DNA of 64,000 bases from Eledone cirrhosa (Eukaryota): contig OZ024742.1 in NCBI GenBank assembly GCA_964016885.1, positions 344,472,001-344,536,000 on the forward strand. The letters run 5' to 3'. Every line of letters begins with the position of its first letter. The first letter of the stretch is position 1. Of this stretch, positions 7,190 to 40,513 are shown one piece after another. Below the pieces are notes generated by a model. The model saw nothing but the letters and a program-made list of their open reading frames with translations, had not been told where the DNA came from and ran no database searches. The position numbers and the translations under genes are program-made.

Positions 7190-7420
7190 ATATGCAAATG
7201 AGGCTATTCAGCCGATTTATACCTCAGAAAATACTATATATTTTCAACCGTTCAACAGATTGGCAGGGAAGTAATCAGTCCTGATGAAGGGTAATGACTC
7301 ACACACATGTTGATTGTTCCTCAACAAACGGATGACGATTGGTCATCAGCACAGCACAGCTTTATCGGGTCGTTTGCTTGCGAACAAACCGAATATCATT
7401 ATTAATGTTCGATATGCCTT
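7190..7420 (+). mobile_element. Old diverged relative of retrozyme family A with decayed hammerhead (7273-7315)
   Basis: Shares ATGCAAAT-GAGGCTATTCAGCCG, AACAAACGG and AACAAACCGA..AATGTTCG with family A. It keeps CTGATGA and a palindromic ACATGT, but GAAA is lost. Confidence 0.55.
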
Positions 7421-8068
7421 GACGCATAGAGTTACGGCCCTTGCCATTCTGAATTCAAATCCCGCCGAGGGATCGATAAAATATAGTACCAGTAATACAT
7501 TTATCATATATGATAATCATATTACGTAATTATTTATAGCTGTTATTACATTAAACATAGATGTATTTATTGTAATATTTTTATAAAGGATTCCACAGAA
7601 TGTACGATAGATAATGATTACAATATTTTTGAGTAACAACTCTAGTCCCACACTTTTGAAGGTTTATTATAACATTCTGTGGCTCTTTTGCGCTGGCGCA
7701 TTTTTCATGTCTAGTATATATATATATATATATATATATATATATATATATATATATATATATATATAAATTCAGCGAGAATCGCATTTCGGCGGGTAGA
7801 AAAATCGAAACGCAATGCAAATTCCGAGTCATGCTGGCAAGCGCTCCATGGGCTAAAAGAGACCAGAGCAATAAACATAGGTTATAAAGGCCATACAAAC
7901 TGAGAAGGCGGTCAAGAAGCCATTAACCACCTAAAAAAAAAAAAACGAGTCAATAATAACGGGCCAGACAAAATAAATGACATATTCACCCGGACCCTTG
8001 GAATTGATGGTATAATCCAGTACAGTGTTTCTGCGACACCTAAATCAATAATACTGTCTGCTTAAAAC

Positions 8069-8714
8069 AATAAGCTTTTTGGTATAATGATCGAACGAGG
8101 AATATCACGTTATCAACGGGTATTTTGTTCTGCGACAGTGTTATGGATGACACAGTGTTTTGTAAAAGCTCATGTGTAAATCACAGGGGGAAACACCCCA
8201 GATATTGGCAAATGAATTCAGTATGTGTAAATCCATGTAAAACATTGCATAAACAGCACAAATAAGCTCTCAACCGGGTAGTTTTTAAAATAAACTTATG
8301 TAATTAATCAGTCAATAGAATTATTAACAGGTTAACTGTAAGACTCGGGAGATTAATAATATATACATATATACATATATTCTCCCGACTCTTACAATTA
8401 ACCTGTTAATAATTCTATTGACTGATTAATTACATAAGTTTATTTTAAAAACTACCCGGTTGAGAGCTTATTTGTGCTGTTTATGCAATTTTTTACATGG
8501 ATTTACACATACTGAATTCATTTGCCAATATCTGGGGTGTTTCCCCCTGTGATTTACACATACTGAATTCATTTGCCAATATCTGGGGTGTTTCCCCCTG
8601 TGAGTTACACATGTGCTTTTACAAAACACTGTGTCTTCCACAACACTGACGCAGAACAAAATACCCGTTGATAACGTGATATTCCTCGTTCGATCATTAT
8701 ACCAAAGGCTTATT
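8069..8714. repeat. Long inverted repeat (arms 8069-8352 and 8381-8714) around a TA-rich spacer
   Basis: The arms are near-identical reverse complements. The right arm has a 51-bp tandem duplication (8501-8602). Confidence 0.95.
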
Positions 8715-37591: not shown

Positions 37592-38108
37592 TATGCATAC
37601 TAGTATTTCAGTATACATATGTGGATGTACATTTTTAACTTAATTGTTTAAGCGTCAGTCATACAAAAGTGAGTTACAAACGAAACGAAATTTAATTTCG
37701 TTTCGTTATTTGTTTTTATCGTCTCCGTTGAACCGGTACGTACTCACGCTCTATGCAAATTAGTCTGCCCACTACTAATTTTCATAGAAAAAGCATATAA
37801 CGATATGTGCTTTTACGATTCTCTAGAGACGCCGGAAGATAGGTAAATATTGCTGATGAGATGTAACAACATCGAAACTAGTTCAATATTCCTTGTCTGG
37901 CTTTCTGGAGAATAGAGGAAAGGTGTTTCCTCAAAAACCAGTATGACTCTAAAAACCGGTTTGTCTGTGTGTTTACATACAGAATAGCTGGACACTGAAA
38001 TAGTGACCAGTGAAAAACTCGGTACATCTACATATGTATACGTGTGTGTATTCATATGCATACTAGTATTTCAGTATACATATGTGGATGTACATTTTTA
38101 ACTTAATT
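37592..38108 (+). mobile_element. Retrozyme-like family B monomer (463-bp unit plus 54-bp terminal direct repeat)
   Basis: TATGCATACTAGTATTTCAGTATACATATGTGGATGTACATTTTTAACTTAATT occurs at 37592 and 38055. A canonical HHR lies in the middle. Confidence 0.85.
37846..37890 (+). ncRNA. Canonical type I hammerhead ribozyme
   Basis: AATATTG-CTGATGA-GATGT-aaca-ACATC-GAAA-CTAG-TT-CAATATT. It has a 7-bp stem I, a 5-bp stem II and a palindromic stem III. Predicted cut after 37883. Confidence 0.92.
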
Positions 38109-40513
38109 ATATATATATATATATATATATATATATATATATATATATATATATGTATATATATATATATATGTATGTATATATATATATATATATATAT
38201 ATATATATATATATATATATATATATATATATATATATATATATATATATATATATATATATATATATATGTGTGTGTGTGTATGCCTCTCTCTTTATAT
38301 GTGTATATATATATAGATGTGTGTATGTGTGTGTGTATGCATGTATGTGTGAACGGAGGGGTATATATACGGACATATGTATATGTAATACACGTGCGTG
38401 TGTTTGTGTGTATGTGTGCGTGTATGTGTGTATATGTGTGTGTATGTGTATATGTATGCTAATATATATATATATATATATATATATATATGTATGTATG
38501 TATATGTGTATGTGTATGTGTATGTATATCTATATATATACCCATGTGGAGGTATGAGTACATATTCGTGTGTGTACGTATGTATATGAGTGTTTTTATA
38601 TGTGTCTCTATATATTTTTGTGTATGTATGTGGATGTATTTGTGCATGGGTGTGTGATTGATGGTGTGTGCCTATATATTCCTACATATGCCCGTGTGTG
38701 TATGTACGTATATGCGCACATATGTGTGTGTTGAACAAAAGACTAACTTTGGGATGGACGTAGAAAAATTCTTCAGGAAAAAAGAAGAAAAAAATAATTA
38801 TTCACAAACTTGACAGGTGCGATTTGCCTGTGACCATTCTCAACACAAAAGCAATACTAAAAGCTTTTTCCCCTGAATAAAGGAATTTTTCGAGAATGAC
38901 CGGGGCAGGCCGCACTTGCTACATTTCTCCCCACCCAACCCTACTCACCGTCTCAACTCATTACTGCTATGAACACTTTTTCAACACACCTACACCCATG
39001 CACTTATTAAAGGGGGAGAAAAGAAACCCCCACCACACCACAGACATGTTAAATCCCTATATATAGAACAACACACCACATACACATCAGTTTGACAAGC
39101 GCACCTCAGCGTGAAAGGTCTTTCTAAAAATGAAACAATACCTCCTACGTTAACCAAGAACTCATAAGACCTAACCAACTACCAACAACTTAATTTATAA
39201 AATAATTTTTTTAAGAAAAATTCTTTTGGGATTTTGTGAAGAAAATAAATTTGTTGAAAGCACAAGTGAAGCCATTTTTTCTTCCCCCCTGTCTTAATAT
39301 ACCTAACTGTACCAAGGATTACACACATTTTCCAATATATATATATATATATAACTTTTATAGCTTATGTATATATATATATATATATATATATATATAT
39401 ATATATATATATATATATATATACACATCTGGACAACTATGCCTATCTGATGTACACTTTGATAGTTATATCTTTCTGATAAGAATCCTTAACCCTTGGC
39501 GTGTCTTTCAATGGAAAGACTCTGGAAGAGTTCTTTAATCTAAGAATAATACCATTTACTGTAATTAAGTTACAGGTGACACTGTGGCTTCTAACAATAT
39601 ACGGTACACTTTCTTCTTCTATTTTCAAACAATACCATCTCAGCTGTCTCTGCAGCTTGATTGTATATAGATTGTATATATGCATGTATATACTCACATA
39701 TGTGTATATACATACATATATATATATATATATATATATATATATATATATATATATATATATATATATATATATATATATATATATATATATATATATA
39801 TATATTATATATATATATATATATACACGCGCACACACCCAAACACACACACATATATATATATATATATGTGTGTGTGTGTGTGTGTGCTTGCGTGTGT
39901 ATATAGACAAATAATATATATATATATATATATATATATATATATATATATATACACAGTCATGAGACAAGTAATAAATATATATATATATACAGTCATT
40001 AGAGAAATAATATATAAATATATATATATATATATATATATATATTCACTTATGTGTGTAAGGTTCGTCTGAGTGTATTAGTGTCTGCATGTATGTGTTG
40101 TATGCTGTGTGCGTGTGTGTGAGTGTGTGTATGTGCTGTATGCATTGTGTGTGTATGTGATTGTTATCTCTGCGTATGTGTGTATGTATGTGCTGTATGC
40201 AGTGTGTGTGTGTGTAAGTGTGTGTGTGTGTGAGTATGTGCTGTATGCATTGTGTGTGTGTGTATGTGCTGTATGCAGTTTGTGTGTATGCATGTGTATG
40301 TGTGTGTGTATGTGTATGTGTGTGTGAGTATGTATGTGTGTGTGTATGTATGTGTGTGATTGTTTGTGTTCATTTGTTTGAAAGGTCATTTTCGTATCGT
40401 TTCCTTGATTGTATCATTCGTTTGATATCCAGAGTTGATAGAATTGAGAGCAAATATTGAGCTGACGGCACAATATTAAAAACATCTGGTCAAACACAGC
40501 TTAGAACCACACA

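What the first reader, a model, noticed from the sequence alone, without database searches (positions are those of the whole stretch)
7190..39301. Dense field of diverse hammerhead ribozymes in (TA)n microsatellites: a candidate Penelope/retrozyme system
Seen: about 20 HHR motifs in ~32 kb. Strong ones are at 12558, 12822, 16309, 19381, 20204, 27579, 32656, 34468, 34969 and 37846. Weaker or decayed ones are at 7273, 10455, 12449, 13162, 14872, 15447, 17158, 21149 and 35619/39092. They have many unrelated flanks, and most sit in 150-500 bp islands bounded by (TA)n. PLE RT and GIY-YIG remnants sit in the same microsatellites. Established: PLE pseudo-LTRs and animal non-LTR retrozymes carry type I HHRs. 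Inference: PLE machinery with a TA preference has mobilised many non-coding self-cleaving RNA families, which would make up much of what looks like unique spacer DNA. The general classes are known. The specific families, density and core variants may be undescribed.
Basis: partly seen in the sequence, partly recalled or inferred. Interest (0 to 1): 0.92.

Follow-up and report, generated by a model that had tools for sequence, protein, structure and literature searches.

The report
Penelope-mobilised hammerhead retrozymes in TA repeats
This animal genome is strewn with short self-cleaving-RNA elements that encode no protein, yet their insertions in TA microsatellites look just like those of Penelope retrotransposons, which is direct genomic evidence for the proposed idea that Penelope enzymes copy them.

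Summary
Largely real. Of 20 claimed motifs, 7 fold as type I hammerheads, 3 nearly so, 6 are broken copies of families whose other copies fold, and 4 are doubtful. Nine lie in five non-coding units of 316-593 nt (retrozymes). Seven are 3' ends of Hydra- or Neptune-type Penelope-like elements (PLEs). Four are unassigned.

The field is not local: 40 genome samples give about 85 motifs per Mb (34 hits against about 1 shuffled), and this window is within range.

The new result is the insertion anatomy of the non-coding units. 121 of 143 3' ends fall on one or two fixed internal sites, mostly followed by (TA)n. Copies run through the cut site for more than one unit. In head-to-head twin arms, 30 of 32 pairs use different sites, as the autonomous Hydra element does (4 of 4). 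This supports PLE target-primed reverse transcription in trans.

Cleavage, expression, a circular template and the helper clade are not shown. The scan earlier noted a similar pattern for a ribozyme-less unit in another genome.

The parts
34183..35220 (.). Family A non-coding unit (~428-430 nt), twin-arm insertion. Inverted arm 34183-34629 (hammerhead core 34504-, 3' end at unit 266, near site 271); direct arm(s) 34645-35220 (core 34974+, 3' end at site 214). TA/GA microsatellite on both sides.
   Evidence: 1651 first-look candidates in genome
13045..13470 (+). Family A copy, one lap, ending at site 271; decayed hammerhead (core 13168, C3U without A8, stem III mutated)
19215..19632 (.). Family A twin-arm copy; inversion junction at ~19380 breaks stem I of the hammerhead (core 19383+)
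7195..7420 (+). Diverged family A relative; core 7281, GAAA lost
12543..12722 (+). Family B non-coding unit (593-595 nt), 5'-truncated, ending at site 80; hammerhead with U3-A8 core (12563), long bulged stem II, palindromic stem III, GUC site
   Evidence: (672 candidates, top 40 at 99%)
37592..38108 (+). Family C non-coding unit (462-466 nt, 63% identical to A), 1.1 laps ending at site 228; best hammerhead (core 37853; most copies cut at GUC, this one at GUU)
20018..20404 (+). Family D non-coding unit (523-525 nt) with a single 3' site (125); hammerhead core 20210, first stem I pair mismatched in this copy
   Evidence: (1248 candidates)
14822..15275 (.). Family E non-coding unit (316 nt), twin-arm insertion; core 14907- decayed here, canonical CUGAUGA/GUC in 10 other copies
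   Evidence: (2082 candidates)
27535..32910 (.). Hydra-type PLE, twin-arm insertion. Inverted pseudo-LTR arm 27535-29230 (hammerhead core 27622-, 3' end at site 44-50). Direct arm 29297-32910: RT thumb, CxCX5C linker and GIY-YIG (29297-30705, one frame change near 29992), 3' UTR with 157-bp repeats, core 32661+ (CCGAAGA, U4C), 3' end at site 213-218.
16272..17063 (-). Older relative of the Hydra pseudo-LTR; U4C hammerhead, core 16351
35447..36200 (-). 3' end of a Neptune-type PLE, short-ended arm; doubtful U3-A8 hammerhead, core 35651
   Evidence: (1151 candidates, 98-99%)
38560..39335 (+). Opposite arm of the same Neptune-type PLE, ending about 40 nt further (tail); doubtful core 39092
36713..37000 (-).
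   Evidence: ORF 1-1.4 kb upstream in L087 and L100
12352..12500 (-). Tiny twin-arm 3' tip of a Hydra-type family; hammerhead cut by the inversion junction
   Evidence: ORF ends ~190 nt upstream in L106
21147..21275 (+). 3' tip of a probable Hydra-type pseudo-LTR; hammerhead core 21149 with its 5' stem I arm truncated
   Evidence: relative lies ~320 nt before a Hydra-type ORF in L109
15352..15580 (+). 3' tip of a longer unassigned element; minimal hammerhead, core 15450 (CUGAAGA or CCGAAGA in copies)
12776..12925 (+). 3' tip of an unassigned family; long stem II hammerhead with duplicated core (12830)
10240..10735 (+). 3' tip of a longer unassigned element; decayed motif, core 10461
17090..17273 (+). 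Island with a doubtful minimal hammerhead (core 17161, 2-bp stem I)
25960..26158 (+).
11870..12182 (-). Hydra-type endonuclease C-terminal remnant (36% identical) with a short inverted arm
15700..16170 (-). Reverse transcriptase remnant (RYVDD motif) ending in (TA)n; PLE-like by recalled motifs, clade not assigned
   Evidence: (RVT_1, E 3e-4, below cut-off)

Best explanation
The region is a pile-up of nested insertions made by (TA)n-targeting Penelope-like retrotransposons. Some are truncated 3' ends of the autonomous elements (Hydra and Neptune types). Others are at least five protein-free units of 316-593 nt, each with one type I hammerhead, that are copied in trans (non-LTR retrozymes). Shown: fixed internal 3' ends 80-302 nt downstream of the predicted cut, followed by TA; scattered 5' ends; copies longer than one unit that pass through the cut site; head-to-head twin arms that end at two different sites; and the same anatomy in an intact-ORF Hydra family. 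Inferred: the PLE GIY-YIG nicks both strands of (TA)n. Each 3'-OH primes reverse transcription at one of two internal sites of the bound RNA, probably one per protomer of a dimer. The template is a religated circle or an uncleaved multimer. The two cDNAs run in opposite directions and join at their 5' ends. Each insertion leaves TA on its flanks, a target for the next. The ribozyme, with its small palindromic stem III, probably cleaves as a dimer in multimeric transcripts to release unit-length RNA.
For: 121 of 143 3' ends lie within 8 nt of 1-2 sites per family, where 3-11% of positions qualify. In one search, TA follows 45/65, 31/33, 13/15, 14/14 and 9/19 3' ends (A-E). In loci not fetched for family A, 15 of 18 A segments end at the same two sites. 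Twin arms: 30 of 32 pairs with both ends on a site use different sites (p 2.5e-7; 8 further pairs had an end off-site). The Hydra element does the same in 4 of 4 such pairs, of 7. Arm junctions mostly overlap by a few bases. Family D has one site and no twin arm in 12 loci. Segments longer than 1.05 units: 18/65, 10/33, 7/18, 11/14, 10/19. The units have no ATG ORF above 78 aa and fold with circular z of -3.9 to -14.7 (15 shuffles). Stem covariation in A+C: 82 cells with two-sided changes against 29.9 shuffled, and 90% paired against 52% or less when slid. Helpers exist: 830-aa open Hydra ORFs and Neptune-type ORFs. A one-sided tail, two internal RT start sites, both-strand nicking and a predicted dimer are published PLE traits (PMC8557442; PMC11167929).
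Against: No cleavage or expression data. The units share no detectable DNA similarity with the one Hydra unit tested, so the helper is inferred from anatomy alone and two clades compete. Family loci were the top BLAST hits to queries that span the ribozyme, which favours young, long copies and hides copies that stop at the cut. Laps within one locus share family alleles in C, B and D, but only partly in A (15% discordant against 28% between loci) and not in E (48% against 33%), which argues against a single monomer circle for every insertion. Covariation is inflated by relatedness, mostly the A/C split. One of the 40 scored D places shows a possible inverted arm. In vitro, the anole PLE showed no strand difference in RT start site.
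Confidence: 0.85

Rival explanations
1. The mobiliser is a PLE, but the template is an uncleaved linear multimeric transcript. The hammerhead is a passenger inherited from ancestral pseudo-LTRs and no circular RNA is involved. This differs from the best reading only in the ribozyme's role.
For: cDNA passes the cut site freely. Laps differ at polymorphic sites in E and partly in A. For the anole PLE, ribozyme mutants insert normally and unprocessed RNA is the main substrate. The most abundant Hydra pseudo-LTR carries a U4C core reported to lower activity in vitro. Scan note e1-7810660 reports the same pattern for a unit without a ribozyme (untested).
Against: Cores and stems are kept with compensatory changes across families of otherwise unrelated sequence. 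The units fold compactly as circles. Laps and arms are near-clonal in C, B and D. Known animal retrozymes form circles (PMC7229834).
Confidence: 0.35
2. The short units are deleted pseudo-LTRs of PLE families that amplified as DNA (tandem duplication, satellite-like expansion, or DNA transposition), not through RNA in trans.
For: Some arrays are long (six or more laps in L037). The 2026 preprint invokes local tandem amplification after birth from a pLTR.
Against: Copies are dispersed over many chromosomes at 91-99% identity. They have one fixed end and one variable end, a polar TA junction and twin arms, which unequal crossover or cut-and-paste would not give. No terminal inverted repeat is fixed at both ends.
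Confidence: 0.07
3. A non-PLE retrotransposon (a microsatellite-targeting LINE, for example RTE or Dong/R4 type) supplies the enzymes.
For: LINE remnants lie in the window (RT ORFs at 22444-25397 and 708-3505), and LINEs can make 5' inversions (recalled).
Against: LINE priming starts at the RNA 3' end (recalled) and gives inverted pieces of one strand, not two arms that each end at a separate fixed internal site. The two-site pattern matches the co-resident Hydra and Neptune elements.
Confidence: 0.06
4. The motifs are chance matches in AT-rich, self-complementary DNA.
For: Most individual motifs have weak folding z-scores (8 of 11 between -1.7 and +0.5). Rfam finds none at gathering score. 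Four motifs have stem I of 2 bp or less.
Against: 7 hits against 0.125 in the window, and 34 against about 1 in genome samples. 18 clusters of two or more motifs keep core and stems with different stem sequences. Covariation.
Confidence: 0.02

Closest known systems
Animal non-LTR retrozymes (Cervera & de la Pena 2020, PMC7229834, passages read; Li, Clavereau & Pollet 2026 preprint 10.64898/2026.07.22.740005, first part and passages read)
   Same: Short non-coding, low-GC (32-42%), highly structured head-to-tail units with one type I hammerhead each, co-occurring with PLEs.
   Different: Units reach 523-593 nt (published monomers about 150-450 bp). Copies are mostly dispersed at 0.2-3 laps, inserted in (TA)n, with fixed internal 3' ends and twin arms. 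'Inverted' and 'microsatellite' do not occur in the 2020 main text, and in the preprint only in another context or in the references. Those papers support PLE mobilisation by shared ribozyme type, co-occurrence and phylogeny, not by insertion signature. Circles and cleavage were shown there (2020), not here.
Hydra clade of PLEs (Craig et al. 2021, PMC8557442; section 11 and passages read)
   Same: C-terminal GIY-YIG, DKT motif, CxCX5C linker, CxxC and CxH around E and N, no CCHH, (TA)n insertion, hammerhead in the pseudo-LTR, inverted 5'-truncated arm, tail at one end.
   Different: The unit is 4.3-4.7 kb rather than under 3 kb. RWR stands in place of RWK. The hammerhead core is U4C rather than canonical. 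The tail is about 170 nt rather than 30-40. Copy number is very high (67,406 first-look candidates across related families).
Neptune clade of PLEs (as described in PMC8557442)
   Same: [quoted passage not shown]
   Different: Only the C-terminal 267 aa were seen. The associated hammerhead at 35651/39092 has almost no stem I, and the 3' UTR itself holds long microsatellite.
Poseidon PAc in vitro mechanism (Frangieh et al. 2024, PMC11167929; parts 1-2 of 4 read)
   Same: Internal initiation at two sites downstream of the ribozyme, which explains the tail; AT-rich targets; both strands nicked and extended.
   Different: There the start site is not homologous to the target and does not differ between strands. 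Here the ends often abut 1-6 nt of TA-like sequence and the two arms almost always use different sites.
Minimal PLE hammerheads (Cervera & de la Pena 2014, PMC4209133, passages read; Perreault et al. 2011, PMC3088659, passages read)
   Same: Small palindromic helix III implying dimer cleavage, opposite-strand pairs 100-700 bp apart, U3-A8 core, occasional 2-bp helix I; U4C known from a viroid.
   Different: U4C fixed in a high-copy, intact-ORF animal PLE was not found in my one search for the term. Several families have very long stem II extensions.

Membership tests
Type I hammerhead ribozyme | Core (C/U)UGAN(G/A)A...GAAA...UH with three stems, stem I open | tested here: met
   7 of 20 window copies intact and 16 of 20 in families with the fold; U4C in the Hydra pLTR
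Type I hammerhead ribozyme | Covariation in stems | tested here: met
   A+C alignment of 58 copies: 8 of 17 pairs with two-sided changes, 82 cells against 29.9; relatedness not controlled
Type I hammerhead ribozyme | Rfam gathering score | tested here: not met
   0 at gathering score; HH9 36.5 bits against 52
Type I hammerhead ribozyme | Self-cleavage at NUH | not testable with these tools
   needs an assay
Non-LTR retrozyme | Short non-coding head-to-tail unit with one type I hammerhead per unit | tested here: met
   cut-to-cut units of 316, 428-430, 462-466, 523-525 and 593-595 nt; longest ATG ORF 36-78 aa
Non-LTR retrozyme | Low GC and highly self-paired | tested here: met
   GC 32-42%, 62-67% paired, circular z -3.9 to -14.7
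Non-LTR retrozyme | Expressed as unit-length circular RNA | tested here: inconclusive
   no RNA holder listed; only contigs could be laid
Hydra clade PLE | C-terminal GIY-YIG after RT in one ORF | tested here: met
   830-aa ORFs in 8 of 8 fetched loci with YRDD-type motif; GIY-YIG E 1e-3 to 2e-3, below cut-off; Atlas neighbours carry GIY-YIG, RVT_1 or HTH_animal; Pfam finds no RT
Hydra clade PLE | DKT, RWK, CxCX5C, CxxC/CxH, no CCHH | tested here: met
   ADKTNN, RVRWR (RWR), CNCRSSRTC, CNLC and CQH read against the definition
Hydra clade PLE | (TA)n insertion and hammerhead in the pseudo-LTR | tested here: met
   hammerhead 288-290 nt before the ORF and again about 4.0-4.4 kb after its start
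Hydra clade PLE | Placement in the RT phylogeny | not tested
   no reference PLE set at hand
Neptune clade PLE | CX2-5CxxC linker plus CCHH GIY-YIG at the C terminus | tested here: met
   L176 ORF end, GIY-YIG E 4.7e-5 above cut-off; Nematis not excluded without a tree
PLE insertion signature (in the non-coding units) | Partial tandems, inverted 5'-truncated arm, tail at one end only | tested here: met
   family D has tandems but one site and no twin arm in 12 loci

The most novel reading that the evidence does not exclude
This genome hosts an ecosystem of many unrelated, viroid-sized ribozyme RNAs, with about 2.5 x 10^5 genomic hammerheads (one per ~12 kb, PLE tips included). The RNAs circularise and hijack PLE enzymes by presenting two dedicated priming sites. 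A PLE dimer assigns one site to each nicked strand of (TA)n and so writes two divergent cDNAs from one RNA. The number of sites in the RNA then decides whether an insertion is inverted. This would be a general rule for how PLE pseudo-LTRs, tails and inversions arise, readable from 300-600 nt substrates.
Probability: 0.4. Interest if true: 0.82.

Novelty: new variant of a known kind. Interest (0 to 1): 0.64.

Why it matters
Which enzyme mobilises animal retrozymes has been proposed (PLEs) but supported only by co-occurrence and phylogeny. Here five protein-free families carry the PLE insertion signature, beside young helper ORFs that look intact.

That gives minimal substrates and candidate enzymes for a direct test. 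It also gives a quantitative rule (opposite arms use different start sites, 30 of 32) that bears on the open question of how PLE inversions and tails form.

The estimated load, 45-133 motifs per Mb or about 1.3-4 x 10^5 per genome, exceeds the 5,000-6,000 reported for mussel and coral. It is at or above the 120,000 reported for axolotl.

Tried and rejected
- Rfam at gathering score: nothing. The E-value scan was swamped by microsatellite hits, and 250 of 400 rows were not shown.
- Sequencing runs: no RNA holder listed. Four runs of unrecorded kind were laid as contigs. One run holds a single 621-nt contig that spans one lap of family B, and another is dominated by a haplotype that is minor in the largest run. 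Tandem DNA at low depth can give the same picture, so I do not count this as evidence.
- 'The window is a unique hotspot': rejected.
- DNA homology between the five units and the Hydra unit: none at E 0.01; only A and C are related.
- A shared structure at the start sites: several follow a hairpin, but no common motif was evident.
- TA microhomology at the start sites: 1-6 nt, in the top 7% of positions for 6 of 10 sites only; suggestive, not shown.
- Single monomer circle for all insertions: not supported in A and E. My first version of this test was contaminated by palindromic segments in A.
- The first site guess for the PLE was off; the 4 of 4 count was read from the listed pairs.
- PDB sequence search of the Hydra ORF: nothing significant.
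- Family searches for 15447 and several other islands were not completed; their assignment rests on copies met in other loci.
- Literature: searches listed no paper on hammerheads or retrozymes in cephalopods, and none on twin priming in PLEs or retrozymes. Subscription papers (for example the 2017 paper on dimeric PLE hammerheads, recalled) and all supplements were not seen and could contain some of these families.
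Full report
Setting. The window lies at G000:C3:344472001-344536000 in a 3.0-Gb genome. From recalled SINE sequences it looks like an octopod cephalopod; no call tested this. Positions 6200-40650 hold 133 (TA)6+ runs, and 41092-64000 is a satellite array.

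Are the motifs there? Rfam finds nothing at gathering score, and one HH9 match below cut-off among the 150 of 400 rows shown. A relaxed type I descriptor finds 7 motifs in 7190-39301 against 0.125 in 40 shuffles. Read against genomic relatives, 7 of the 20 claimed motifs are intact, 3 are near-intact, 6 are broken copies of families with the fold, and 4 are doubtful (stem I of 2 bp or less). One intact motif (36818-) and one decayed motif (26011+) were missed. An alignment of 58 A and C copies shows 82 two-sided changes against 29.9 shuffled, and 90% pairing against 52% or less for slid partners; relatedness inflates this. Nearly all motifs have a small, mostly palindromic stem III, which in PLE hammerheads implies dimer cleavage. 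The U3-A8 core is a published PLE variant (PMC4209133 passages), and U4C is known from a viroid with lower in vitro activity (PMC3088659 passages).

Is the density special? No. Forty 10-kb samples at round coordinates (32 of 40 from the four largest contigs) hold 34 descriptor hits against about 1 per shuffle. That is 85 per Mb (bootstrap 45-133), or roughly 2.5 x 10^5 in the genome; three samples reach 7 or more in 9% of draws. The descriptor misses long-stem families such as B and D. A looser scan of all fetched loci gave 212 motifs in 30 clusters, 18 with two or more members. In the random samples, 37 of 41 motifs have (TA)6 within 300 nt downstream and 12 of 41 upstream, against 16-28% of random positions. 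The ribozymes therefore sit just inside 3' ends that join TA.

Two kinds of carrier. The first kind is autonomous PLEs. The ORF pieces at 29297-30705 match a family with 67,406 first-look candidates and many 830-aa open frames. Eight fetched copies show DKT, RWR, CxCX5C, CxxC/CxH and no CCHH, the Hydra diagnostics of Craig et al. 2021 (section 11). The U4C hammerhead lies 288-290 nt before the ORF and again at the 3' end. The 35619/39092 arms are the 3' end of a Neptune-type element, and so is 36818. Relatives of 12449 and 21149 adjoin Hydra-type ORFs. The second kind is five non-coding units: A 428, B 593, C 466, D 523 and E 316 nt cut to cut, with 1651, 672, 11, 1248 and 2082 first-look candidates. 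They have no ATG ORF above 78 aa, fold strongly as circles, and show no DNA similarity to the Hydra unit; only A and C are related. Nine of the 20 motifs are in these units, 7 in PLE ends, and 4 in tips of longer unassigned elements.

Insertion anatomy. In 85 loci of the five units, 121 of 143 3' ends fall within 8 nt of one or two sites (A 214/271, B 80/242-247, C 228/302, D 125, E 138/167), where 3-11% of positions qualify. Most are followed by TA, and the 5' ends scatter. These loci were top BLAST hits, which is a bias. In loci not fetched for A, 15 of 18 A segments still end at the two sites, and 2 of 18 begin within 5 nt of the cut, one of them an alignment break. Many segments exceed one unit, so synthesis passes the cut site. 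Head-to-head twin arms numbered 40: 30 use different sites, 2 the same site, and 8 have an end off-site (p 2.5e-7 for 30 of 32). The Hydra element has sites at 44-50 and 213-218 and uses different ones in 4 of 4 pairs with both ends on a site, of 7 pairs. D, with one site, has no twin arm in 12 loci, though one of its 40 scored places may have one. Partial tandems, an inverted 5'-truncated arm and a tail at one end are the published PLE hallmarks. Two internal RT start sites, nicking of both strands and a predicted dimer were reported for the anole PLE.

Mechanism. The most likely reading is PLE target-primed reverse transcription in trans (0.85). Both strands of (TA)n are nicked, each end primes at one of two internal RNA sites, the cDNAs diverge and join at their 5' ends, and the insertion leaves TA for the next one. 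The enzymatic steps are inferred. The template is unresolved. At family-polymorphic sites, laps and arms of one locus agree in C (4% and 2% discordant against 34% between loci), B (9% and 13% against 34%, few sites) and D (1 of 8 against 48%). They agree only partly in A (15% and 21% against 28%) and laps do not agree in E (48% against 33%). A single monomer circle thus fits the younger families but not all; an uncleaved multimer fits too, and the anole data show that cleavage is dispensable in vitro. The helper clade is also open, since both Hydra and Neptune types are young here.

Comparison and verdict. The units work like, and by sequence anatomy are, animal non-LTR retrozymes (PMC7229834 passages); circle formation and cleavage are untested. 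PLE mobilisation was proposed in that paper and backed by co-occurrence and phylogeny in a 2026 preprint. Neither text, in the passages and term counts I saw, describes TA targeting, fixed internal ends or twin arms. A 2026 octopus repeat annotation has no occurrence of 'ribozyme' in its main text. My searches cover open papers only, and supplements were not read. An earlier scan note describes a ribozyme-less unit with the same pattern in another genome (untested), which favours caution about the ribozyme's role. Verdict: a new variant of a known kind. Interest 0.64.

Noticed in passing
window 41092-64000: Satellite array of a 24-bp unit (about 959 copies) with a higher-order period near 2.8 kb.
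   Followed up: no
window 22030-25400 (-): About 3.4-kb decayed LINE with endonuclease, RT and C-terminal C2H2 zinc-finger motifs (RTE-like by recall), frameshifted.
   Followed up: no
window 244-5560 (-): Decayed LINE of L1/Tx1 type by recalled motifs, with ORF1 (zinc knuckle) and ORF2 in several frames.
   Followed up: no
window 8069-8714: Near-perfect 650-bp fold-back (two inverted arms) with a 51-bp duplication; no hammerhead noticed.
   Followed up: no
window 10821-11330 and 7770-8060: TA/TAA-flanked repeat families with copies elsewhere (one has a 140-bp tandem); no hammerhead found by my descriptor, possibly further PLE tips.
   Followed up: partly
window 17311-17915 and 21772-21820: A repeat beginning directly after (TA)n with a fixed 5' start, seen beside several fetched loci (L034, L035, L041, L045); another TA-associated family.
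   Followed up: no
L011:2203-2810 and L027:2258-3261: 310-bp tandem unit related to family E in part but with a different hammerhead (CUGAAGA core, ACGCGT stem III): a possible sixth retrozyme family.
   Followed up: partly
L117, L118, L120, L110, L102 (random samples): The commonest hammerhead family in the random samples (stem III ATATRTAT; 9 hits) is absent from the window and uncharacterised.
   Followed up: no
L176:900-1900; window 36200-36712: The Neptune-type element carries a long TA/TG microsatellite inside its own 3' UTR, so it may spread targets for later insertions.
   Followed up: partly
window 13640-13920 (-): Decayed frame that resembles a GIY-YIG C-terminal stretch by eye; not confirmed by any profile.
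   Followed up: partly
L061 near 1640: A family B arm joins directly to the 36818-family arm in one twin insertion, which suggests one event that used two different RNAs, a retrozyme and a Neptune-type 3' end.
   Followed up: no
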